DNA of 41,038 bases, taken from positions 1-41,038 of the forward strand of contig CAOJZE010000001.1 in assembly GCA_948466095.1 (NCBI GenBank), read 5' to 3'. Source of the DNA: an uncultured Clostridium sp. Its GTDB lineage: Bacteria > Bacillota > Clostridia > TANB77 > CAG-508. The notes beneath the pieces are model-generated. The model was not told where the DNA came from. It did not search any database and saw only the letters and a program-made list of their open reading frames with translations. Of the stretch, positions 3,977-14,942 are shown in pieces. The position numbers and the translations under genes are program-made. Within the stretch, counting starts at the first letter, position 1, and each line of letters opens with the position of its first letter.

Positions 3977-4606
3977 ATGAATATTATAGATATTTATAAT
4001 AAATACCATTTACCAGAAAATTTACAAATGCATATGTTAAGAGTTGCTGCATGTAGTAATTTAATAATAGATAACTGGAATGGACCAAAAATAGATAAAG
4101 AATCAATTATTAGAGTAAGTCTATTGCATGACATGGGAAATATGGTAAAAATACCAGAAGACTTTTCAAAAGATGAAGAATTTATAAAAATAAGAAAAAA
4201 ATATTTTGAAAAATATGGAACTAATGACCATGAAATCAATTTAGAAATTGGAAAACAAGAGGGATTAACTGAAAAAGAAATTGTTATATTAGATGGAAAA
4301 AGGTCAAGAAAGAATGAAGAAACATTAAAATCAAATTCTTATGAAAGGAAAATTTGTGCCTATTGCGACCAGAGAGTAGCACCAAATGGAGTAGTAGAAA
4401 TAAAAGAAAGATTAGAAGATGCAAAAGTTAGATATACAGATAAACCATTATCTGTATGGTCTAATGAAGAAAAAGCAAATCATTTAATAGAATGTTCTTT
4501 AGGTATAGAAAAACAAATAATGGAACATTGTAAATTAAATCCAGAAGATATAAATGATGATAGTATAAAAACATATATAGAACGATTAAAAAAATATGAA
4601 ATATAG
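3977..4606 (+). CDS. HD-domain phosphohydrolase
   Basis: Contains 'H..RVA' followed by the 'LLHDMGN' (H...HD) motif. Confidence 0.7.
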   Translation: MNIIDIYNKYHLPENLQMHMLRVAACSNLIIDNWNGPKIDKESIIRVSLLHDMGNMVKIPEDFSKDEEFIKIRKKYFEKYGTNDHEINLEIGKQEGLTEKEIVILDGKRSRKNEETLKSNSYERKICAYCDQRVAPNGVVEIKERLEDAKVRYTDKPLSVWSNEEKANHLIECSLGIEKQIMEHCKLNPEDINDDSIKTYIERLKKYEI

Positions 4607-4615
4607 GAGAGAAAG

Positions 4616-4954
4616 ATGAAATTTGATGTTAAAAAAGTAAAAATTATTGTAACTGTACCAGTTGAAAATAGCAAAGAAGTTAGAAGTGCTATTTGTGATG
4701 AAGGAGCAGGAATTATAGGAAATTATACAGATTGTACTATATCTACAAAGTGTATAGGAACTTTTAAACCTTTAGATGATGCTAATCCATATATTGGACA
4801 AAAAAATAAATTAGAATTTGTAGAAGAAGAAAAATTAGAAGTAAGATGTGATGTTAGTATAGTTAAAAGGGTACTAAAAAGATTAAGAGAAGTTCATCCT
4901 TATGAAGAACCAGCAATAGATATAATTCCTCTAATAGAAGAAGATGATTTATAA
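4616..4954 (+). CDS. Stand-alone NIF3/YqfO insert-domain-like (PII-like fold) protein
   Basis: 'KIIVTVPVENSKEVRSAICDEGAGIIGNYTDCTISTKCIGTFKP...NPYIGQ...EEEKLEV...HPYEEPAIDIIPL' matches the inserted domain of YqfO/NIF3 proteins as I remember it. Confidence 0.55.
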   Translation: MKFDVKKVKIIVTVPVENSKEVRSAICDEGAGIIGNYTDCTISTKCIGTFKPLDDANPYIGQKNKLEFVEEEKLEVRCDVSIVKRVLKRLREVHPYEEPAIDIIPLIEEDDL

Positions 4955-4974
4955 AAATCAATATAAAGGAGAAG

Positions 4975-5502
4975 ATGATGAGAAAAATAACAGTTGAAAT
5001 GGCATGTTCTATTAATGGATTAATTGCAACAGAACATGGAAATGAGGACTTTCTATCTTACAGAGGTTGGGAGATAATGTTGGAATTTTTAAAGGAATAT
5101 GATGTACTGATATGGGGCAGAAAAACTTGGGAAAATATAGTATCTTGGGGAGAAGACTATTTAAATGACTTAAAAGACATAAATATAATTATTCTAAGTG
5201 AAACAAGTAATAAGAAAAAACAATGTTCAAATATTACATATTGCAGTTCGATAGAAGATTGTTTAAAAGTATGTGAAAAAATGAAATACGAAAAATTATT
5301 CATTTCTGGTGGTGCAACTATAAATAATTCTTTTATGGAAAAAGGAATAGTAGATAATATTATTTTAAATTATAATCCATTTGTATTAAATAAAGGAATA
5401 CCACTATTTAAAGGTAATTATTTTGAAAACAAACTAAAACTTGAAAAAATTATAAGAGAACAGGAAGATATAGTACAAGTTCATTATAGTGTTATAAACT
5501 AA
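4975..5502 (+). CDS. Dihydrofolate-reductase-like (RibD C-terminal domain) family protein
   Basis: Size is 175 aa. 'SINGLIAT...', 'WGRKTWE' and 'ISGGATINNSFMEKGIVDNIILNYNPFVLNKGIPLF' resemble RibD_C/DHFR-like reductases. Confidence 0.6.
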   Translation: MMRKITVEMACSINGLIATEHGNEDFLSYRGWEIMLEFLKEYDVLIWGRKTWENIVSWGEDYLNDLKDINIIILSETSNKKKQCSNITYCSSIEDCLKVCEKMKYEKLFISGGATINNSFMEKGIVDNIILNYNPFVLNKGIPLFKGNYFENKLKLEKIIREQEDIVQVHYSVIN

Positions 5503-5544
5503 AAACAAGAAAATAAGTATAGCAAAGAAAGGAGATGTTGATAA

Positions 5545-6388
5545 ATGAAACAATTAGATAACAAAGAAAGTTATAATAATAAAACTTTTGAAGATATAAA
5601 ACATATTGACGAAAATGGAATTGAATTTTGGCATGCAAGAGAATTGATGAAAGTTTTAAGTTATAAAGATTGGAGATATTTTGATGCAGTAATTGAAAAA
5701 GCAAAGATAGCTTGTCAAAACTCTGAAATAACTGACATTGACCATTTCGTTGTTGACAACAAAATGGTTGAAATAGGTTCTGGTGCAAAAAGAGAACAAA
5801 AAGATTATAAATTAACAAGATATGCTTGCTATCTTATAGCTCAAAATGCAAATCCAAGATTAAAAATTGTAGCTCTTGCACAAACATATTTTGCAATTCA
5901 AACTAGAAAACAAGAAATTAGTGAAAAGGAATATAGTTCATTAACAGAAGATGAAAAGAGATTTTATCAAAGAAACTTAACTAGAAAAGGTAATTATTCA
6001 CTTAATCAAACAGCTAAAAATGCAGGAGTTAAGAATTTTGATAAATTTCATAATGCTGGATATAAAGGTCTATACAATGGAGAAACGGCTGATGATATTG
6101 CCAAAAGAAAAGGATTAAGATATAGAGAAGATATTTTAGATAATATGGGAAGTGAAGAACTTGCAGCTAATTTATTTCGCATTACACAAACAGAATCAAG
6201 ATTAAAAAGAGATAAAGTTGATACTGAAAAGAAAGCTTGTGATACTCATAATAAAATTGGGAAAATAGTTAGAAAAGCAATTAAACAGGCAGGACGGAAC
6301 TATGCCAGAAGAATTGCCTACACCTAAAAAGAGTTTAAAACAATTAGAAAAAGAAAATAAGAGAAGTTTGAAGAAAAAAGAAATTTGA
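5545..6388 (+). pseudogene. dinD: DNA damage-inducible protein D (DinD), with the C-terminus shifted by a single-base indel near 6269-6300
   Basis: The N-terminus 'FEDIKHIDENGIEFWHARELMKVL.Y..W..F..VIEKAK.AC' is DinD-like. After '...AIKQAG' the expected 'GTMPEELPTPKKSLKQLEKENKRSLKKKEI*' continues in the +1 frame to a TGA at 6386-6388. Confidence 0.7.
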
Positions 6389-6442
6389 ATAGAGTTTTAT
6401 TAACGGGATAAAATTGGTTATAATTCTACGAATTATTAGTAT

Positions 6443-6470
6443 TTGTAATATTAATAATTTGTGATAAAAT
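6443..6470 (+). promoter_or_regulatory. SigA-type promoter candidate for the 3-gene cassette
   Basis: TTGTAA (6443-6448), a 16-nt spacer ending in TGa, then TAAAAT (6465-6470), about 55 nt upstream of the ATG at 6524. Confidence 0.35.
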
Positions 6471-6523
6471 ATGTAACAGTATATTCAATATAAGATTAAT
6501 ATAATAAATAAAAGGGTAAAAGG

Positions 6524-7825
6524 ATGATAAATAGAAAAACTAAAAAGAAATTACGAAGGAAGAATTATTTAAAGCATAAATTAGAAAAAGTAATGAGGCA
6601 AAGGCATAGATATAATAAAAAGAAAAAGTGTAAAAGTAAAGCAATTAACTTTTTACCGAAAATAGTTCAATCTAAAAGAAATACTAAAATAGTAGAACTG
6701 TTAAAAAAAGAAAAATTTATTAAAAAAGTTAGAAGAAAAAGTAAAGAAGATAGAGTTATAATAGATATACCACAAGTTTTTAGTTTTATAAAAAATCCAG
6801 AAGAAACAATTTTAACTTTAAAAAAGATTTTTTATTGTGGAAATAATAAGAAAATTAAAAAAATTTATTTTAATTATGATAATTGTAAAGAATTAGGTTT
6901 ATGTGCATCACTAATTACAGATTTAATTGTTGTTGAATTATCAAAGACAAGAAAAATAGGATTAAGTGGAACAGCACCTCAAGATAGATTAGCAAGAAAG
7001 ATGTTTAATATAACAGGATTACCAAAACATTTAGGAATTAGAAATATATCTACAAAAGATACAGAAACATTAGAAACTTTATCTAATTTAGAATTATCTG
7101 ATATGTGCGAAAAGCTAGTAGAATATTATAATAACTGTTTACACACACAAGGGTATGCATTATCAGATGATGGAAAAAATAAGTTTGGAAAAATGTTTGG
7201 AGAGGTATTTGATAATGCAATAAAGTATAGTGGAAATTTAGGATCTTGGCACGCACTAGGTTATTTTGATAGACCAGAAGAAGATAAAAATTATGGTAAA
7301 TGTAGATTAGTATTAATGAATTTTGGTAATAGTATATATGAGGGGTTAAAAGCAGAAGATACTACTAAATATACAAAAAAACAGTTAGAGCGACATACAA
7401 AAAAACATCATAGCTTTTTTGGTATAAATTTTAATGAAGAAGTATTATGGACATTATATGCTTTGCAAAAGAATGTAAGTAAACAAAGAATAGATAAACA
7501 AGATACAAAAGGAAAAGGGACAATTGATTTGATTGAGAGTTTTATGGCAATAGGAGCTGAAATAAATGAAGAAAAACCTATAATGTCTATAACATCAGGT
7601 GGATGTCATATTTTATTTGATGGAACATATACTTTAAAAGAGATAGAATATAAAGATGGAAGAAAAGTGCCAATTATTGCATTTAATGATAAAAATAGTT
7701 TAAACCATAAACCAGACTCAAACTATGTATATGCTATAAAAAATAAATTTATAGGAACTGTAATATCAATGGAATTTTATTTAGACAGACAATATATAAC
7801 TGAAATGTTGAAAAAAGGAGATTAA
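6524..7825 (+). CDS. GHKL (HATPase_c-like) ATPase / putative serine-kinase-like protein with a Lys/Arg-rich N-terminal extension
   Basis: Motifs read by eye: N-box-like 'FGEVFDNAIKYSG', G1-like 'LVLMNFGNSIYEGL' (Asn where Asp is usual) and G2-like 'TKGKGTIDLIESF'. Residues 1-75 are dominated by K/R. This is the first gene of a translationally coupled trio. Confidence 0.55.
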   Translation: MINRKTKKKLRRKNYLKHKLEKVMRQRHRYNKKKKCKSKAINFLPKIVQSKRNTKIVELLKKEKFIKKVRRKSKEDRVIIDIPQVFSFIKNPEETILTLKKIFYCGNNKKIKKIYFNYDNCKELGLCASLITDLIVVELSKTRKIGLSGTAPQDRLARKMFNITGLPKHLGIRNISTKDTETLETLSNLELSDMCEKLVEYYNNCLHTQGYALSDDGKNKFGKMFGEVFDNAIKYSGNLGSWHALGYFDRPEEDKNYGKCRLVLMNFGNSIYEGLKAEDTTKYTKKQLERHTKKHHSFFGINFNEEVLWTLYALQKNVSKQRIDKQDTKGKGTIDLIESFMAIGAEINEEKPIMSITSGGCHILFDGTYTLKEIEYKDGRKVPIIAFNDKNSLNHKPDSNYVYAIKNKFIGTVISMEFYLDRQYITEMLKKGD

Positions 7826-7826
7826 A

Positions 7827-8153
7827 ATGGAGATTTATAAAATAGATTTGAAAGATTATATTGAAAGCAAAAAAGTGCTTGCAGGAAGAACTAATGGTGA
7901 AGATATTAGGAAAAAAATTAATTTGGAGAAAATAGAAAATGAAAATGAAAAAATAGAAATAATAATTCCTAATGATGTTTTTTCATTTAATTCTTCTTAT
8001 TTTTTAGGTATGTTTGGAGAAAGTGTAAAAAAATTAGGTAAAGAAAAGTTTGAAGAAAAGTATCAATTTAATACTAAAAATGAATCAATAAGAATGAACA
8101 TTAAAGATGGTATAGATGAAGCATTAAATAATGTAGATGTGTTTGGAGGGTAG
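7827..8153 (+). CDS. STAS-like small protein (DUF4325-type)
   Basis: The start is 1 nt after the upstream stop. 'LAGRTNGEDIRKKI...KIEIIIPNDVFSFNSSYFLGMFGESVKKLGKEKFEEKYQF' matches the DUF4325/STAS-like pattern as I remember it. Confidence 0.55.
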   Translation: MEIYKIDLKDYIESKKVLAGRTNGEDIRKKINLEKIENENEKIEIIIPNDVFSFNSSYFLGMFGESVKKLGKEKFEEKYQFNTKNESIRMNIKDGIDEALNNVDVFGG

Positions 8154-8155
8154 AT

Positions 8156-8743
8156 ATGGATAAAAACAATAAAATTTTACCACCAATAATTGCCTGTATT
8201 CTAAGTATAGTAATAGGACAAGTTGTTCTGTGGATAATAAATCGTACAGAACTTGAAATAATATCAAATATGTTAGAAGTTTTAATAGCTGTATTAAATT
8301 TTATATTTGTTATATATATATTTAAAAATGACCAAAAATATAGAGAAGAAGAAAGACAATTAAATAAAAGTCAAAAAGAGAAAGAATATTCTTTATATTG
8401 GTATCAAACATTTATATTACCTGATAGTATAAAATATATAAAAGAATTTAAAAATGATTTATTTGTTTTAGTAGACAATAATTTAAAGTCAGGAAATACT
8501 GTTGATAGCGATAAATATGCAGAATATACTAAGTTACATATAAGTTGTAAGAATAATGTTACTGAAATTCTAAAAGTAATATCTCCTAAAACAGAACAAG
8601 CTATAAGAACTAGTTTTTCGAATTTTCAAGATGAATTTAGCAAACTCGTTTATGAAACAGGAACAGTAGAAGATATTAAAAAATCAATTATAGAAAATGA
8701 AACAAAATTACTAGAAATATTATATAAATATGAAATATTTTAA
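8156..8743 (+). CDS. Membrane protein with 2 N-terminal TM helices and a charged helical C-terminal domain
   Basis: The start is 2 nt after the upstream stop. Hydrophobic segments are 'ILPPIIACILSIVIGQVVLWII' and 'MLEVLIAVLNFIFVIYIF', followed by about 135 aa of K/E-rich sequence. No family was recognised. Confidence 0.55.
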   Translation: MDKNNKILPPIIACILSIVIGQVVLWIINRTELEIISNMLEVLIAVLNFIFVIYIFKNDQKYREEERQLNKSQKEKEYSLYWYQTFILPDSIKYIKEFKNDLFVLVDNNLKSGNTVDSDKYAEYTKLHISCKNNVTEILKVISPKTEQAIRTSFSNFQDEFSKLVYETGTVEDIKKSIIENETKLLEILYKYEIF

Positions 8744-8963
8744 TAGTTTCTATTGATAAATATAAAAAGTTATGTTAAATTAAAAACATAGTAATAGACA
8801 AAAAAACACCGATATGGGTATACACTTCTTTGAAACTATTGCTATAACTGATTTTGAAACGGATAATAAGGTGCTTTTTTGATAGGCGTTTTTCGCATAC
8901 GTCCTTCGCTAAGGCACCAACGACGTTTCTGTTCGAACTTTTTATAGAACAGAAAGATACAGA

Positions 8964-8998
8964 AATCAATCAGAAAATAAAATCTGGTTGATTTTTTT
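8964..8998 (+). terminator. Rho-independent terminator
   Basis: Stem ATCAATCAG/CTGGTTGAT (one mismatch) with an AAAATAAAAT loop, followed by a T7 run. Confidence 0.5.
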
Positions 8999-9049
8999 GT
9001 TGCTTAAAAACAATATAAAAATCATCCACACGAAAGGATGGTGCGAAAA

Positions 9050-9241
9050 ATGAAGATAATTAAGCAAGAACTAGAATTTGAGGAATGTCTAAAACAAAGA
9101 CTTGGATTTATATGTGAGTTTTCTAAAGTTACTCCTACTTTATACGCTAATATAGGGACTTTTCGTGCTTTTAAGCAAAAAAGTCAAACGCTAGAAGTGT
9201 TGAAAATACTGGATTGCGAAAAACGAGATAAAAATAATTAA
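9050..9241 (+). CDS. Small hypothetical protein (63 aa)
   Basis: An ORF with AAAGGA about 12 nt upstream of the ATG at 9050. No family was recognised, and it may not be coding. Confidence 0.25.
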   Translation: MKIIKQELEFEECLKQRLGFICEFSKVTPTLYANIGTFRAFKQKSQTLEVLKILDCEKRDKNN

Positions 9242-9290
9242 TAAAACCTTTGATTTTCTAAGAAAAAATTTTTTATTCGTTACCACTGCG

Positions 9291-9317
9291 TCCCTCTTGT
9301 CCCTCTTGTCCCTCTTG
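9291..9317. repeat. Perfect 3 x 9-bp tandem repeat (TCCCTCTTG)3
   Basis: Read directly: units at 9291-9299, 9300-9308 and 9309-9317. The last unit supplies the TTG of a TTGACA hexamer at 9315-9320, upstream of dut. Confidence 0.9.
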
Positions 9318-9388: not shown

Positions 9389-9850
9389 ATGGAAAAATTA
9401 AGAGGATTTGAAATAGCAAAAGGATTTGAAGATAAACAAATCAATTTACCAGTAAGAAAAACAAAATATTCAGCTGGATATGATATTGAAGCAGCAGAAG
9501 ATGTAGTGATACCAAGCTTCAAAAAAGGTATGAACCCTACTTTAGTAAAAACAGGATTAAAGGCGTATATGCAAGAGGATGAGGTTATGTTGTTGTATAA
9601 CAGAAGTTCTAATCCAAAGAAAAAAGGGTTGATTATGGCTAACAGTGTGGGAGTGATTGATAAAGATTATTATGGAAATCTAGATAATGATGGTCATTTC
9701 ATGTTTGCTTTTTATAATATCAAAGAAGAAGATATTACAGTTAAAAAAGGAGAGGCAATTGGTCAAGCTGTCTTCCAAAAGTACCTGATAGTAGATAACG
9801 ACGAGGCACAAGGAGAAAGAATAGGAGGATTTGGCTCTACCAATCAATAA
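9389..9850 (+). CDS. dut: dUTP diphosphatase (trimeric dUTPase)
   Basis: Contains 'SAGYDI', 'NRSS', 'GVIDKDYYG' and the C-terminal 'RIGGFGSTN' dUTPase motifs. Confidence 0.85.
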   Translation: MEKLRGFEIAKGFEDKQINLPVRKTKYSAGYDIEAAEDVVIPSFKKGMNPTLVKTGLKAYMQEDEVMLLYNRSSNPKKKGLIMANSVGVIDKDYYGNLDNDGHFMFAFYNIKEEDITVKKGEAIGQAVFQKYLIVDNDEAQGERIGGFGSTNQ

Positions 9851-9939
9851 AAATCGAAATAAAAAAATTAAAAAAAATTTATGCTTAGAGAATAAAGGGA
9901 TAGAGGTAAAATATACATAAAAAAATTAAGGTAAGGGCT

Positions 9940-9968
9940 TTGACTTTTACCTTTTTTTGTTGTATAAT
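9940..9968 (+). promoter_or_regulatory. SigA-type promoter candidate upstream of carD
   Basis: TTGACT (9940-9945), a 17-nt spacer, then TATAAT (9963-9968). It overlaps a hairpin and T-run that could terminate dut. Confidence 0.35.
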
Positions 9969-10078
9969 AAATATGGTTAAAAAATCCAGTAAAGTTATTA
10001 AATACCATGAATATTTACATAGCTTTATTATCTTTTTTTCGCCGAATATATCAAAGATGCTGAAAGGAGTTGGCTTAC

Positions 10079-10642
10079 ATGTTTAATGTAGGAGACAAAA
10101 TTGTATACCCAATGCATGGAGCAGGGGTAATAGATTCAATAGAGGAAAAAGATATTTTAGGAGAGAAACAATCTTATTACATATTGAAGATGCCTGGAGA
10201 GGTAAAAGTGATGATACCAACAGCGAAGGCAGAAACAGTAGGGGTAAGAAACATTATAGATAAAAGTTCAGCAGATAAAGTAATTGGGATACTAGAGAAA
10301 GATGAAACACAAATGGATAAAAACTGGAATAAGAGATATAGAGATAATATGGATAAAATGAAAAGTGGAGATATTTATGAAATAGCTGATGTAGTAAGAA
10401 ACTTAAGTTTTAAACAAAAAGAAAAAGGATTATCTACTGGTGAAAAGAAGATGTTAAATAATGCGAAACAAATATTAGTGAGTGAATTGGTGTTGGCAGA
10501 ACATGCTTCACAAGATGAGGTAGAACAATTAATAGAAAATAAAATAAATACGTCTTTTATGATGTTTAGAGCAGAAGAAATAAAACCAGAAAGTGTTGTT
10601 AATAAGTTTATACCTTTTGATGGAACAGGAACGAACGATTAA
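10079..10642 (+). CDS. carD: CarD-family transcriptional regulator (RNAP-binding)
   Basis: 'MFNVGDKIVYPMHGAGVIDSIEEKDILGEKQSYYILKM' is a CarD_CdnL_TRCF N-terminal domain. AAGGAG lies upstream of the ATG at 10079. Confidence 0.85.
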   Translation: MFNVGDKIVYPMHGAGVIDSIEEKDILGEKQSYYILKMPGEVKVMIPTAKAETVGVRNIIDKSSADKVIGILEKDETQMDKNWNKRYRDNMDKMKSGDIYEIADVVRNLSFKQKEKGLSTGEKKMLNNAKQILVSELVLAEHASQDEVEQLIENKINTSFMMFRAEEIKPESVVNKFIPFDGTGTND

Positions 10643-10649
10643 TCAAGTG

Positions 10650-10684
10650 TCCAGTTGAAAATAAATTCGACTGGATATTTTTCT
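10650..10684 (+). terminator. Rho-independent terminator after carD
   Basis: Stem TCCAGTTG/CGACTGGA (one G-U pair) followed by TATTTTTTCT. Confidence 0.55.
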
Positions 10685-10839
10685 AATTATCTATTCAAAA
10701 CTTGCCATCAAAAAAGTAAAAAAGTACTTGCAAAGTATTGTTTTTTGGTATAAAATGGATTTACTCAAAGAATTTGGGTAATACTATATAATGAAAAAAG
10801 ATGCTTAAAAACAAATAAACAAATATAGATTTAAATTGA

Positions 10840-11883
<1,044 letters not shown>

Positions 11884-11962
11884 GGAAACAAAGTAGAGTG
11901 ATAAAATTATCAAAATTATCAAAATTACTTGTATTTTAAGAAAAGAAGTGGTAAAATAAGAA

Positions 11963-12008
11963 AAGATTAAAAAAAAACCAATTTTGGTCGAATTTTAATC
12001 TTTTTTTC
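11963..12008 (+). terminator. Probable terminator after gap
   Basis: AAGATTAAAA/TTTTAATCTT 10-bp stem (AT-rich) with an inner ACCAATTTTGGT palindrome, followed by a T-run. Confidence 0.45.
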
Positions 12009-12089
12009 ATTTTACTTAGAAGAAATTACCCAAAAGATTCGTACCTAATAGTAGCTTGTCAATTGAAAAATAGAAAGGAAGTTTTTGCG

Positions 12090-13685
12090 ATGAACACAAA
12101 ATATATTTTTGTAACAGGTGGAGTAGTATCAGGACTAGGAAAAGGAATTACAGCAGCATCTTTAGGAAGATTATTAAAAAATAGAGGGTATAAGGTTACA
12201 ATTCAAAAATTTGACCCTTATATCAACGTAGATCCAGGAACGATGAATCCCTATGAACATGGAGAGGTTTTTGTTACAGATGATGGGGCAGAAACGGACT
12301 TAGATTTAGGACATTACGAAAGATTTATCAATGAAAACCTAACCAAAAATTCAAGTGTTACCATGGGTAAAATTTATCAAAATGTCATTGAAAAAGAGAG
12401 AAGAGGAGATTACTTAGGAAAAACGGTTCAAGTAATTCCGCATATTACGAATGAAATCAAAGAAAAGATATATGGTTTTGAAGAAATGGATACCGATATT
12501 GTTATTACAGAAATAGGAGGAACCGTTGGAGACATTGAAGGACTATCTATTATTGAGGCAATTCGTCAAGTAGGGCTAGAGAAAAATCCAGAAGATGTGA
12601 TTTATATACATGTTACTTTATTGCCATACATTTCTGGTTCCAATGAAATAAAATCGAAACCAACGCAACACTCTGTAAAAGAATTACAAAGTTTTGGAAT
12701 CAAGCCAAACATATTAGTTTGTAGAACAGAGACTGACATTCCAGATAGTATCCGTGAAAAACTATCTCTATTTTGTAATGTCAGAAAGACCAGTGTCATT
12801 CAAAATAAAACGGCAGACAATTTGTATGCAGTTCCACTTATGTTAGAAGAAGAAGGATTAGCAAGAGAAGTTTGCAATCATTTAAAATTAGAGAATTATG
12901 TACCAGATAATAGCAAATGGGAAATGATGGTTGAAAATATTAGAAGTATTGCGGAAGATAAAGTGATTCATATTGCTATTGTTGGGAAATATGTCAAATT
13001 AGAAGATTCTTATATTTCTGTTATGGAGAGCTTGTATCATGCAGGTTTTGCGAATCATGTAAAAGTAAAAGTTCATTTGATTGATTCAGAAACCATAACC
13101 AGTGAAAATGTAGAAAAGAAATTAAAAGATATCGATGGTGTTGTGGTTCCAGGAGGATTTGGAAATCGAGGAATTGAAGGAAAAATTGAAACGATAAAAT
13201 ATGTTAGAGAAAACAAAATTCCATTTTTAGGAATTTGTTTAGGAATGCAGATGGCAGTAGTGGAATTTGCAAGAAATGTATTAGGATTAAAGGATGCGGA
13301 TTCTGCCGAATTAGATGAAAATACAAAAAATCCGATTATTCATATCATGGAGGAACAAAAAGGCATTGACAAAAAAGGCGGAACGATGAGATTAGGTGCT
13401 TATCCATGTATTATCAAAGAAGGCACATTGGCAAGCAAAATCTATGGAGAAAAGGAAATATCAGAAAGACACAGACATCGTTATGAATATAATAATGAAT
13501 ACAGACAAAGACTAGAAGAAGCAGGTCTAAAAATTTCAGGAACTTCTCCAGACGGCTTATTAGTAGAAATGGTAGAAATACCAGAACATCCATATTTTAT
13601 AGCGGGACAATTCCATCCAGAGTTAAAATCTAGACCGAATAAACCAGCACCATTATTTGTGGGATTAATAAAAGCATGTTTATAA
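12090..13685 (+). CDS. pyrG: CTP synthase
   Basis: Contains '[16 protein letters not shown]' and the glutamine amidotransferase motifs 'GICLGMQ' and 'RHRHRYE'. Confidence 0.95.
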
Positions 13686-14767: not shown

Positions 14768-14841
<74 letters not shown>

Positions 14842-14868: not shown

Positions 14869-14942
14869 GCAGGTGTAGTTCAATGGTAGAACCTTAGCCT
14901 TCCAAGCTAATGACGTGGGTTCGATTCCCACTACCTGCTCCA
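14869..14942 (+). tRNA. tRNA-Gly (anticodon UCC), second tandem copy
   Basis: Identical to the first copy except for a compensatory pair in the anticodon stem (TTAGC/GCTAA instead of TCAGC/GCTGA). Confidence 0.9.

What the first reader, a model, noticed from the sequence alone, without database searches (positions are those of the whole stretch)
6524..8743. Three-gene GHKL-ATPase / STAS-like (DUF4325-type) / 2-TM protein cassette on the mobile island: candidate undescribed partner-switching-type conflict system
Three same-strand ORFs are packed with gaps of 1 nt and 2 nt (stop 7825/start 7827; stop 8153/start 8156), which implies translational coupling. They have their own promoter-like site (6443-6470) and sit at the distal end of a mobilizable island, directly after dinD.

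ORF1 (433 aa) carries Bergerat-fold-like motifs: N-box FGEVFDNAIKYSG, G1-like LVLMNFGNSIYEGL with Asn in place of the usual Asp, and G2-like TKGKGTIDLIESF.

ORF2 (108 aa) reads like a STAS-like DUF4325 protein (LAGRTNGEDIRKKI ... IIIPNDVFSFNSSYFLGMFGESV). Its serine cluster (FNSS) lies where SpoIIAA/RsbV-type STAS proteins carry their phospho-acceptor.

ORF3 (195 aa) has two N-terminal TM helices and a charged helical domain, which could be an effector or an anchor.

A kinase plus a STAS protein is the logic of RsbW/RsbV and SpoIIAB/SpoIIAA. Here there is no sigma factor and no PP2C phosphatase, and the third partner is a membrane protein carried on a mobile element. I cannot match this gene composition to any named anti-phage or toxin-antitoxin system I know.
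Basis: partly seen in the sequence, partly recalled or inferred. Interest (0 to 1): 0.85.

Follow-up and report, generated by a model that had tools for sequence, protein, structure and literature searches.

The report
Kinase–STAS–membrane protein defence-like operon
A tightly packed three-gene operon on a mobilizable island encodes a distant relative of the recently described VapK/CapK kinase, a small STAS-like partner with an invariant serine, and a membrane-anchored protein where the published system has a nuclease toxin, so it is probably an undescribed membrane-effector version of that anti-phage toxin–antitoxin module.

Summary
The three ORFs, their 1-nt and 2-nt gaps and the quoted motifs are all present. 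The promoter-like site is no better than chance.

- **ORF1 (433 aa):** a polybasic tail, a STAS-like domain and a GHKL domain. Its family aligns end to end with the VapK family (hhalign 89%, E 2e-6). VapK is the kinase of the VapKSC toxin–antitoxin/anti-phage system (Chambers et al., EMBO J 2026).
- **ORF2 (108 aa):** a divergent DUF4325 (STAS-like) protein, like VapS. Ser57 is invariant in 71 homologues and caps a predicted helix.
- **ORF3 (195 aa):** an uncharacterised membrane-anchored helical protein where VapKSC has a PIN nuclease.

The trio is conserved across phyla. All 70 kinase clusters with enough downstream sequence have the STAS-like gene next, and 51 of 55 have the ORF3-type gene. 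It lies in prophages, on plasmids and beside restriction-modification genes. No PADLOC model matches it.

It differs from VapK in three ways: the G1 box is N-F-G-x-T/S instead of D-x-G-x-G, the ssDNA-sensing aromatic residue is absent, and a basic N-terminal tail is added.

Most likely ORF1 phosphorylates ORF2 on Ser57, which unleashes ORF3 at the membrane. That mechanism is inferred, not shown. It is a new variant of a known kind, of moderate-to-good interest.

The parts
6443..6470 (+). Promoter-like site (TTGTAA, 16-nt spacer, TAAAAT, with a TG before the -10) in the 196-nt gap upstream of ORF1
   Evidence: One search found it. Matches of this quality are at chance frequency in this AT-rich DNA (30 found against 23 +/- 4.7 in shuffles), so it is only a candidate.
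6524..7825 (+). ORF1 (433 aa): a VapK/CapK-like STAS-GHKL protein, the putative Ser kinase ('K')
   Evidence: ORF. It belongs to a family of 88 clusters, all unnamed or called 'hypothetical protein' and none with a GHKL or STAS Pfam domain. The AF2 model has pLDDT 87.8. hhalign of the family against the VapK family gives 89% probability, E 2.2e-6, over 283 collinear columns.
6524..6748 (+). ORF1 residues 1-75: polybasic N-terminal tail (33 K/R, 4 D/E) with a predicted long helix at 4-35
   Evidence: In 41 of 46 family members the tail carries a net charge of +13 to +29. The other five have net +1 to +9, some of them with short, probably truncated, tails. VapK has no such tail, and CapK has an HTH domain there.
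6749..7084 (+). ORF1 residues 76-187: internal STAS-like domain (beta-alpha repeats). C121 is Cys in 40 of 46 members and A128 is invariant
   Evidence: Secondary structure. The top Foldseek PDB hits are STAS proteins: 1vc1_A (E 0.2, TMt 0.58), 2ka5 and 5ezb. This region aligns to the VapK STAS domain, FDhSxCxxL...AS against FDFSxCxFLRPNA.
7091..7825 (+). ORF1 residues 190-433: GHKL (Bergerat-fold-like) domain
   Evidence: Motif order and secondary structure. It aligns to the VapK GHKL domain, many of whose homologues hit Pfam HATPase_c PF02518. Foldseek gives weak hits to anti-sigma-F kinases 8ih8_C and 8jzt and to giant-virus histidine kinases at E 0.011-0.12.
7202..7216 (+). N-box, E227 to N231 (GEVFDNAIKYS), of the ExxxNxxxH(S) type seen in VapK
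   Evidence: E227 and N231 are invariant in 46 of 46 members. They align to VapK E156 and N160, and the CapK N-box Asn is required for kinase activity.
7319..7333 (+). Degenerate G1 box, N266-F-G-N-S270, in place of D-x-G-x-G
   Evidence: The Asp position is N in 38, S in 4, D in 2 and G in 2 of 46 members. The second Gly position is T or S in all 46. It aligns to the invariant VapK D-F-G-x-G.
7511..7522 (+). G2 box, G330-K-G332-T333 (family consensus RGxGT)
   Evidence: G330, G332 and T333 are each conserved in 45 of 46 members and align to VapK RGLGL.
7827..8153 (+). ORF2 (108 aa): small DUF4325/STAS-like protein ('S'), the putative kinase substrate and switch
   Evidence: Pfam DUF4325 at E 0.0042 (17.2 bits, cut-off 23). 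Six of 12 family members hit DUF4325. phrog_37359 at E 1.9e-11. The AF2 model has pLDDT 90.5 with a STAS-type order of elements. An S-like gene is always the gene after the kinase gene (70 of 70 clusters). Foldseek against the PDB was inconclusive.
7995..7997 (+). Codon for ORF2 Ser57, the candidate phospho-acceptor
   Evidence: Invariant in 71 of 71 homologues. It sits at the N-terminal cap of the predicted helix 56-70. hhalign places VapS S48 at residue 56, one position away.
8156..8743 (+). ORF3 (195 aa): membrane-anchored helical protein ('T'), the putative effector
   Evidence: No Pfam, NCBIfam, PADLOC, PHROG or PDB match. An ORF3-type gene is third in 51 of 55 clusters with enough sequence.
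8177..8323 (+). ORF3 transmembrane region, with TM1 at about residues 8-28 and TM2 at about residues 36-56
   Evidence: Hydropathy analysis. Only the TM segment next to the cytoplasmic domain is found in all homologues; some have a single TM.
8324..8740 (+). ORF3 residues 57-195: charged, helix-rich C-terminal domain, probably cytoplasmic. W82, F98 and D159 are the best-conserved positions
   Evidence: Profile searches find only generic helical-bundle and apolipoprotein-like similarity.
8961..8996 (+). Terminator-like hairpin with a T-run, 218 nt after the ORF3 stop codon, at the right edge of the island
   Evidence: 2 found against 0.4 +/- 0.7 in shuffles. The island homology ends at 8920-9141.

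Best explanation
The cassette is a three-gene sensor-switch-effector module of the VapKSC type, in which a membrane protein takes the place of the PIN nuclease.

**Components**
- ORF1 is a cytoplasmic Ser kinase of the CapK/VapK lineage, built as an internal STAS-like domain plus a GHKL domain, with an added polybasic N-terminal tail.
- ORF2 is its small STAS-like (DUF4325-type) substrate.
- ORF3 is a membrane-anchored helical protein.

**Proposed sequence of events**
1. At rest, unphosphorylated ORF2 holds the cytoplasmic domain of ORF3 inactive.
2. On a cue from infection or DNA damage, ORF1 phosphorylates ORF2 on the invariant Ser57 at the cap of helix alpha2. The cue is probably a nucleic acid, sensed differently from VapK and perhaps through the basic tail.
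3. Phospho-ORF2 lets go of ORF3.
4. ORF3 perturbs the membrane and stops growth. This would be abortive infection, or addiction to the mobile element.

**Shown here:** gene structure, purifying selection, remote homology of ORF1 to VapK, the invariant serine and its position in the model, strict three-gene synteny across phyla, and the mobile-element and restriction-modification context.

**Inferred:** kinase activity, who binds whom, toxicity of ORF3, the trigger, and the anti-phage role.
For: **ORF1 is a VapK homologue.**
- The ORF1 family (46 sequences) against the VapK family (24 sequences) gives hhalign probability 89%, E 2.2e-6, over 283 columns. ORF1 residues 76-425 align to VapK 5-290, collinear through both domains.
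- N-box E227 and N231, lid motif Q315 and S319, G2 residues G330, G332 and T333, and motif IV residues G411 and T412 are invariant or nearly so. They align with the VapK equivalents.
- Many VapK-family proteins hit Pfam HATPase_c.
- The AF2 model has pLDDT 87.8. Its weak Foldseek hits are to STAS proteins, anti-sigma-F kinases and viral histidine kinases.

**ORF2 resembles VapS.**
- VapS proteins are Pfam DUF4325. ORF2 and 6 of 12 relatives give sub-threshold DUF4325 hits.
- Ser57 is invariant in 71 homologues and caps helix 56-70 in a model with pLDDT 90.5.

**The trio is a conserved unit.**
- Of 79 kinase clusters, 70 of 70 have the STAS-like gene next and 51 of 55 have the ORF3-type gene third. 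Gaps are short or the genes overlap.
- dN/dS is 0.075-0.124.

**The context suits a conflict system.**
- Prophages: L011, L012 and L014, plus IMG/VR contigs.
- Plasmids: Pantoea and Salinivibrio.
- Directly beside type III R-M genes: L009 and L013.
- R-M, resolvase and GmrSD genes among the neighbours.
- A mobilizable island in the window itself.

**Published precedent (PMC13373217).** By the published evidence and model, VapK phosphorylates VapS on S48. The phosphomimetic S48E abolishes VapC binding and antitoxin activity, and the kinase step itself was not assayed. The system protects E. coli against phage Bas42.
Against: - The G1 box lacks the adenine-binding Asp (N in 38 of 46 members) and the second Gly (T or S in 46 of 46). 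From established knowledge rather than any test here, the equivalent Asp-to-Asn change abolishes ATP binding in Hsp90-type GHKL proteins. Kinase activity is therefore not assured.
- The VapK F54 / CapK W68 ssDNA-sensing aromatic residue is not conserved (E123; the column is mostly E, D or K).
- The ORF2-VapS relation is weak by profile comparison (E 0.017 and 0.0096, probability 3-4%). Foldseek against the PDB gave no STAS hit in the top 50 for ORF2.
- hhalign puts VapS S48 opposite residue 56, not the invariant Ser57.
- ORF2 has no obvious counterpart of the VapS C-terminal inhibitory helix.
- ORF3 has no recognisable toxin or pore signature and few conserved residues.
- No interaction, toxicity or phage data exist. 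Neighbourhoods also include ordinary housekeeping genes.
Confidence: 0.55

Rival explanations
1. A classical partner-switch with the roles reversed. ORF1, acting like an anti-sigma factor, is the direct inhibitor that sequesters the cytoplasmic domain of ORF3, or ORF3 anchors ORF1 at the membrane. Unphosphorylated ORF2 is the antagonist that displaces it. Phosphorylation of ORF2 resets the switch rather than firing it.
For: This is the logic of SpoIIAB/SpoIIAA and RsbW/RsbV, the structural relatives of CapK/CapS according to PMC13373217. The weak Foldseek hits of ORF1 include anti-sigma-F kinase complexes. ORF1 carries an extra internal STAS-like domain and a basic tail that could serve as docking surfaces. 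ORF2 lacks a VapS-like C-terminal inhibitory helix.
Against: The closest characterised homologous system (VapKSC) works the other way round, with S binding the effector. No data here show which pairs bind. No phosphatase is present to reset the switch.
Confidence: 0.15
2. ORF1 is a pseudokinase or nucleotide-independent scaffold. The degenerate G1 box means no phosphotransfer takes place, and the module works by regulated binding only, for example nucleic-acid-induced conformational change of ORF1 that titrates ORF2 away from ORF3.
For: G1 is N-F-G-x-T/S instead of D-x-G-x-G throughout the family. No ORF1-family member hits HATPase_c or any other GHKL model, and no Pfam family is matched by more than one of the 46 members. 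Foldseek hits to kinases are weak.
Against: N-box E227 and N231 are invariant in 46 of 46 members. G2 residues G330, G332 and T333 (45 of 46 each) and motif IV residues G411 and T412 (44 and 42 of 46) are nearly invariant. An invariant Ser sits at the acceptor-type position of ORF2 in 71 of 71 homologues. Such conservation is hard to explain without catalysis.
Confidence: 0.12
3. A non-toxic regulatory or stress-signalling module, in which ORF3 is a membrane sensor or anchor that feeds a signal such as envelope stress to the kinase-STAS pair. The output lies elsewhere, and the module is neither a toxin-antitoxin system nor a defence system.
For: ORF3 has no toxin signature. About half of the neighbourhoods are ordinary chromosomal genes. 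STAS partner-switches are classically stress regulators.
Against: No output domain (sigma factor, HTH or enzyme) accompanies the trio in 70 clusters. The trio moves as a self-contained unit through prophages, plasmids, islands and R-M loci of many phyla, which is typical of selfish or defensive cassettes.
Confidence: 0.13

Closest known systems
VapKSC (VapK kinase, VapS STAS antitoxin, VapC PIN toxin); Chambers, Rani, Min, Villa and Corbett, EMBO J 2026 (PMC13373217)
   Same: It is a three-gene operon in the same order: a STAS-GHKL kinase-like protein, then a STAS-like protein of 105-120 aa, then an effector of about 200 aa. ORF1 is a remote homologue of VapK across both domains. It shares the N-box ExxxNxxxHS, the lid motif AxQxGx[ST], the G2 motif RGxG and the motif IV GT. 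VapS is DUF4325, as ORF2 weakly is. The small protein has an invariant Ser at the cap of helix alpha2. The system is often found next to R-M genes or on mobile elements.
   Different: The third gene is a membrane-anchored helical protein, not a PIN nuclease. The ORF1 family has a polybasic tail of about 70 aa, a longer ATP-lid region and a degenerate G1 box (N-F-G-x-T/S). It lacks the VapK F54-type aromatic residue. ORF2 has no separate C-terminal inhibitory helix. The sequence relation is detectable only profile-to-profile: no ORF1-family member hits HATPase_c or any other GHKL model in Pfam, and phmmer with VapK did not retrieve the ORF1 family among its top hits.
CapK-CapS transcriptional controllers of immune operons (same paper)
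   Same: The same kinase plus STAS-substrate pair. The kinase has an internal STAS domain and a GHKL domain. A conserved Ser on the substrate STAS domain is the switch.
   Different: CapK has an N-terminal HTH, whereas ORF1 has a basic helix with no HTH hit. CapS has a C-terminal wHTH and is a repressor, whereas ORF2 is the STAS-like domain alone. CapKS sits upstream of variable immune operons, whereas here the third gene is always the same ORF3-type family.
SpoIIAB/SpoIIAA and RsbW/RsbV partner-switching modules
   Same: A GHKL Ser kinase plus a STAS protein phosphorylated on a Ser at the start of helix alpha2. ORF2 has N-S-S where SpoIIAA has D-S-S (the latter recalled from knowledge). There are weak structural hits.
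   Different: There is no sigma factor target and no PP2C phosphatase. ORF1 is three times larger and has its own STAS-like domain. The module is mobile and not part of core regulation.
Defence systems with small transmembrane effectors (for example CBASS and Pycsar TM effectors, and SLATT 2TM proteins)
   Same: A small protein with one or two N-terminal TM helices is the only candidate effector of a sensor-containing operon on mobile DNA.
   Different: There is no sequence match to any Pfam or PADLOC model, SLATT families included. Control would be by phosphorylation rather than by a nucleotide second messenger. The resemblance is in logic only.

Membership tests
VapKSC-type kinase-STAS-effector module | First gene encodes a protein with a STAS domain followed by a GHKL kinase domain, homologous to VapK | tested here: met
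   hhalign of alignment A1 against A7 gives probability 89%, E 2.2e-6, over 283 collinear columns covering both domains. Against the single VapK sequence, E is 0.0039.
VapKSC-type kinase-STAS-effector module | Catalytic N-box Glu and Asn conserved (CapK N218 is required for kinase activity) | tested here: met
   E227 and N231 are invariant in 46 of 46 members and align to VapK E156 and N160.
VapKSC-type kinase-STAS-effector module | Canonical G1 box D-x-G-x-G (invariant D-F-G-x-G in the VapK family) | tested here: not met
   ORF1 has N266-F-G-N-S270. In the family the Asp position is N 38, S 4, D 2 and G 2, and the second Gly is T or S in 46 of 46.
VapKSC-type kinase-STAS-effector module | Second gene is a small STAS/DUF4325 protein homologous to VapS | tested here: inconclusive
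   Position and size match in 70 of 70 clusters. Pfam DUF4325 scores 17.2 bits, below the cut-off of 23, and 6 of 12 members hit weakly. hhalign against VapS gives E 0.017 and 0.0096 at 3-4% probability. The AF2 order of elements is STAS-like, but Foldseek against the PDB gives no STAS hit.
VapKSC-type kinase-STAS-effector module | Absolutely conserved Ser/Thr at the N-terminus of STAS helix alpha2 (VapS S48, CapS S54) | tested here: met
   Ser57 is invariant in 71 of 71 homologues. The predicted helix 56-70 starts at S56/S57.
VapKSC-type kinase-STAS-effector module | Third gene is a VapC-like PIN nuclease | tested here: not met
   ORF3 and 51 homologues have no PIN hit or any other consistent Pfam hit. 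They carry N-terminal TM helices. True VapKSC loci show PIN.
VapKSC-type kinase-STAS-effector module | Conserved aromatic ssDNA-stacking residue in the kinase STAS domain (VapK F54, CapK W68) | tested here: not met
   The aligned position is E123. The column reads E 15, D 5, K 4, N 4, Q 4 and so on, with F in only 2 of 46.
VapKSC-type kinase-STAS-effector module | Kinase phosphorylates S, S neutralises the toxin, and the system protects against phage | not testable with these tools
   This needs biochemistry and phage assays.
CapK-CapS regulators | HTH at the N-terminus of the kinase and wHTH at the C-terminus of the STAS protein | tested here: not met
   No HTH family hit in ORF1 or ORF2. ORF2 is 108 aa with the STAS-like domain only. 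ORF1 residues 1-75 form a basic helix plus a disordered linker.
SpoIIAB/RsbW-type partner switch | Sigma factor target and PP2C phosphatase in the module | tested here: not met
   Neither is present in the window operon nor in the neighbourhoods examined. A single weak Sigma70_r2 gene lies on the opposite strand in L007 only.
Pfam DUF4325 (PF14213) | Score at or above the gathering threshold (23 bits) | tested here: not met
   ORF2 scores 17.2 bits, E 0.0042. The best E-value among 12 relatives is 0.00098.
Pfam HATPase_c and relatives | Significant profile match | tested here: not met
   No hit for ORF1 and none for any of 46 family members. The link is only through the VapK family profile.
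Any system in PADLOC-DB v2.0.0 | Match to a component model | tested here: not met
   Zero families at E up to 1 for all three proteins.

The most novel reading that the evidence does not exclude
The trio is a distinct, widespread and so far unnamed anti-phage or addiction family. Its kinase clade has rewired both input and chemistry. A polybasic tail, rather than the VapK/CapK aromatic groove, senses the trigger. A non-canonical N-F-G-x-T/S nucleotide pocket may have altered nucleotide use. The output would be a new class of phosphorylation-gated membrane effector (ORF3). If so, the kinase-STAS switch would be a general, modular trigger that bacteria couple to quite different killing devices.
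Probability: 0.35. Interest if true: 0.72.

Novelty: new variant of a known kind. Interest (0 to 1): 0.6.

Why it matters
The CapK/VapK kinase-STAS switch was described only in 2026, with two outputs: a repressor and a PIN toxin. This cassette would add a third output, a membrane protein, and a second, highly divergent kinase clade that standard annotation, Pfam and PADLOC all miss.

The clade is common. A pattern scan found 218 relatives in metagenomes, and members occur in Bacillota, Bacteroidota, Gammaproteobacteria and high-GC soil bacteria. It travels on prophages, plasmids and islands, including those of human-gut Clostridium.

If the model holds, three things follow:
- Phosphorylation-gated partner switching would be shown to be a modular trigger in bacterial immunity.
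- Defence finders would gain a new searchable system.
- There would be a natural experiment on how a GHKL kinase works without its canonical adenine-binding Asp.

Tried and rejected
- **Direct profile searches.** Pfam, NCBIfam, PADLOC and PHROGs on the three proteins gave nothing significant, apart from ORF2's sub-threshold DUF4325 hit and phrog_37359 of unknown function.
- **Pfam on family members.** No Pfam family was matched by more than one of the 46 ORF1 relatives or of the 51 ORF3 relatives.
- **PDB sequence-profile searches.** Searches with all three family profiles gave only noise. The 9Z7O VapS chain was not retrieved.
- **Foldseek against the PDB.** The whole ORF1 model gave only E of 0.2 or worse, with suggestive STAS and anti-sigma kinase hits. 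The ORF2 model gave only generic alpha/beta hits, to macro domains and the M17 N-terminal domain. Fold membership could therefore not be established by structure search.
- **Scanning genome contigs.** The narrow alignment found only 6 loci.
- **Other collections.** tblastn of ORF1 against GenBank phages gave no match. A VapK scan of IMG/VR gave one locus.
- **Considered and rejected.**
  - A sigma-factor partner switch: no sigma factor and no PP2C phosphatase.
  - A CapKS-type transcription regulator: no HTH or wHTH domains.
  - A SLATT or holin identity for ORF3: no profile support.
  - Chance ORFs in AT-rich DNA: excluded by dN/dS of 0.07-0.12 and by cross-phylum synteny.
- **Not attempted.** No K-S or S-T complex prediction was possible with these tools.

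Full report
**1. Observation**

The window carries three same-strand ORFs at 6524-7825 (433 aa), 7827-8153 (108 aa) and 8156-8743 (195 aa). The gaps are 1 nt and 2 nt. GGAGA and GGAGGG Shine-Dalgarno sequences sit just upstream of the second and third start codons.

The genes are real. Against a 91%-identical copy in another contig (L003), dN/dS is 0.075, 0.093 and 0.124.

The cassette lies at the right end of a low-GC mobilizable island. The island genes are TnpV, NikA-like, relaxase, an MBL-fold protein, a cupin, a RibD_C-like protein and a Bro-N/DinD-like protein. Homology to sister islands stops at 8920-9141. A terminator-like hairpin lies at 8961-8996.

The promoter-like site at 6443-6470 exists, but such matches are at chance frequency in this AT-rich DNA: 30 found against 23 +/- 4.7 in shuffles.

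**2. Direct annotation fails**

- ORF1 has no Pfam, NCBIfam, PADLOC or PHROG match.
- ORF2 gives only a sub-threshold DUF4325 ('STAS-like') hit (E 0.0042, 17 bits against a cut-off of 23) and a match to phrog_37359, which has no known function.
- ORF3 matches nothing.

ORF1 belongs to a family of 88 clusters, all unnamed or labelled 'hypothetical protein'. Members come from Clostridium, Anaerosinus, Paenibacillus, Priestia, Mesobacillus and Salinibacter. Scanning 46 members against Pfam gave no consistent family.

**3. Structure and motifs of ORF1**

An AF2 model (pLDDT 87.8) shows three parts:
- a long basic helix (residues 4-35) followed by a disordered linker;
- a beta-alpha domain (residues 77-187);
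- a C-terminal alpha/beta domain (residues 190-430).

The element order of the C-terminal domain, and the positions of its conserved motifs, follow the Bergerat fold:
- an N-box helix with invariant E227 and N231;
- a beta-hairpin ending in N266-F-G268;
- a long lid with invariant Q315 and S319;
- G330-x-G332-T333 at the start of a helix;
- a late strand with G411-T412.

Foldseek against the PDB gave no significant hit. The best were STAS proteins (1vc1_A, E 0.2, TMt 0.58; also 2ka5 and 5ezb) and anti-sigma-F kinase complexes (8ih8_C and 8jzt). Against BFVD, the best named hits were giant-virus histidine kinases at E 0.011-0.12, behind an unnamed protein at E 1.1e-4. Structure search alone is therefore suggestive and not decisive.

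**4. The key link to a published system**

A literature search found Chambers et al., EMBO J 2026 (PMC13373217). The paper describes two systems:
- **CapK/CapS.** CapK is an HTH-STAS-GHKL kinase. CapS is a STAS-wHTH repressor phosphorylated on S54 after ssDNA activates CapK.
- **VapKSC.** This three-gene operon has VapK (STAS plus GHKL), VapS (a 116-aa STAS antitoxin with conserved S48) and VapC (a PIN toxin). It protects E. coli from phage Bas42.

I transcribed VapK and VapS from the authors' AlphaFold3 file, collected VapK homologues (990 proteins, many with Pfam HATPase_c) and compared profiles. The ORF1 family against the VapK family gives hhalign probability 89%, E 2.2e-6, over 283 columns. 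ORF1 residues 76-425 align with VapK 5-290 collinearly through both domains. The aligned motifs are:

| ORF1 family | VapK family |
|---|---|
| FDhSxCxxL...AS | FDFSxCxFLRPNA |
| GEVIDNxxxHSG | WEIYxNAFEHSxS |
| ALQxGVS | WAFQxGNT |
| RGxGT | RGLGL |
| FPGTxIS | FEGTxxxIT |

In genuine VapKSC loci the second gene is a strong DUF4325 hit and the third is PIN. This ties in with the older note that one PIN clade is 'transcriptionally coupled to DUF4325 genes' (PMC5499597).

**5. ORF2**

Six of 12 ORF2 relatives give weak DUF4325 hits. Profile comparison with VapS is weak but collinear (E 0.017 and 0.0096).

In 71 homologues only G24, P48 and S57 are invariant. An AF2 model (pLDDT 90.5) has the STAS-type order beta-beta-alpha-beta-alpha-beta-alpha, with S56 and S57 at the N-terminal cap of helix 56-70. 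That is the position of the phospho-serine in CapS, VapS and SpoIIAA according to the paper. hhalign puts VapS S48 opposite residue 56, one position away.

Foldseek of this model against the PDB found no STAS protein in the top 50, with a best E of 0.19 to macro-like folds. I therefore rate the fold assignment probable, not proven.

**6. ORF3**

ORF3 has two hydrophobic helices followed by a 138-aa charged helical domain. Homologues are 170-340 aa. Only the TM helix adjoining the helical domain is universal, and the best-conserved positions are W82, F98 and D159.

No Pfam or PDB relative appears beyond generic helical bundles. A full HMMER scan of 1.84 billion representative proteins finds only 27 proteins. 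The credible ones are about 170-220 aa, and none shows fusion to another domain. The positive charge after the last TM places the helical domain in the cytoplasm (inference), where ORF1 and ORF2 could reach it.

**7. Conservation as a unit**

Pattern scans gave 218 metagenomic relatives (80 kept) and 6 IMG/VR contigs, in addition to genome and contig look-ups and plasmid hits in Pantoea, Salinivibrio, Providencia, Vibrio and Spirosoma.

HMMs of the three families were run on all ORFs of 100 loci. Among 79 kinase clusters at 90% identity:
- 70 of 70 with enough downstream sequence have the ORF2-type gene immediately next;
- 51 of 55 have the ORF3-type gene third (48 by HMM, 3 by architecture);
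- the four exceptions are a divergent copy (L024), a frameshifted third gene (L055), a probably degenerate locus (L067) and one with an aberrant second gene (L060).

**8. Genomic context**

- Prophages, between replication and terminase genes or after the lysis genes (L011, L012 and L014).
- Immediately next to type III R-M genes (L009 and L013).
- Plasmids, between recombinase genes (L107).
- The mobilizable island of this window.

Among 100 neighbour proteins there are several R-M components, along with GmrSD, resolvases, a relaxase and a holin, but also housekeeping genes. I did not compute a formal enrichment.

**9. How this family differs from VapK and CapK**

- The G1 box is N-F-G-x-T/S. 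The Asp position is N in 38 of 46 members, S in 4, D in 2 and G in 2, and the second Gly is never Gly. VapK has an invariant D-F-G-x-G.
- The VapK F54 / CapK W68 position, required for ssDNA activation, is E123 here and mostly acidic or polar across the family.
- The family has a 60-80-aa N-terminal tail, with net charge +13 to +29 in 41 of 46 members, instead of nothing (VapK) or an HTH (CapK).
- The third gene is a membrane protein, not PIN.

**10. Mechanism**

By homology and synteny, the most economical model is a VapKSC-like switch. ORF2 keeps ORF3 inactive. On a trigger, ORF1 phosphorylates Ser57, and freed ORF3 damages the membrane. The outcome would be abortive infection or addiction to the mobile element.

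The homology, the invariant residues and the synteny are shown. Activity, partner pairing, toxicity, trigger and phenotype are inferred. The atypical G1 box keeps a pseudokinase reading alive, and the absence of a VapS-like C-terminal helix keeps a reversed partner-switch alive.

**11. Verdict**

This cassette is a new variant of it, with a new kinase clade and a new membrane third component. It is widespread and unannotated.

Confidence in the VapKSC-like membrane-effector model is about 0.55, and interest is about 0.6.

Noticed in passing
window 4961-8920 (homology extends to 9141 in some copies): The RibD_C/DHFR-like gene, the Bro-N/DinD-like gene and the trio form one block. The block is shared at 90-95% nucleotide identity with several gut Clostridium contigs (L001-L003 and L019-L021), which have different downstream genes. 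This marks the right boundary of the island at about 8920-9141.
   Followed up: partly
window 5545-6327: The gene directly upstream of the cassette is a Bro-N domain (DinD-like, DNA-damage-inducible-type) protein. In the Priestia prophage locus L011 a Phage_pRha/ORF6C antirepressor-type gene lies about 1.9 kb upstream of the trio. Given that CapK and VapK respond to DNA damage, this neighbour may not be accidental. It was not tested.
   Followed up: no
window 3977-4606 and 4616-4954: Two island ORFs (209 aa and 112 aa) have no Pfam match. They lie between the cupin gene and the RibD_C-like cargo gene.
   Followed up: no
window 14768-14841 and 14869-14942: Two tandem tRNA-Gly(TCC) genes lie about 6 kb to the right of the island edge. 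They are not obviously the integration site.
   Followed up: no
window 7827-8153 (ORF2) against PHROGs: ORF2 residues 16-100 also match positions 355-439 of the 441-position profile phrog_5816 (E 8.9e-5). This suggests phage proteins that carry a C-terminal DUF4325-like domain, possibly fused kinase-STAS proteins.
   Followed up: no
L103, L105 and L104 (VapKSC loci fetched for comparison): Genuine vapKSC operons sit directly after type I R-M hsdM/hsdS genes (L103 and L105) or after QatB/QueC/TatD-type defence genes (L104). This echoes the R-M adjacency of the ORF1-type trio in L009 and L013.
   Followed up: partly
L014 6001-7649: In this metagenomic copy the kinase gene appears to be split by a frameshift into a 459-aa ORF and a 105-aa ORF that carries the C-terminal GHKL strands. 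It is probably a pseudogene or an assembly error. A SLFN_AlbA_2 gene follows the trio.
   Followed up: no
window 8961-8996: A 14-bp-stem hairpin followed by a T-run lies 218 nt downstream of ORF3. It is the only + strand terminator-like site in 6200-9300 and is probably the end of the operon and the island.
   Followed up: no
window 9389-13685: Right of the island the genes are ordinary housekeeping genes: dUTPase, CarD, GAPDH and CTP synthase, at higher GC. This confirms that the cassette belongs to the inserted element and not to the core genome.
   Followed up: yes
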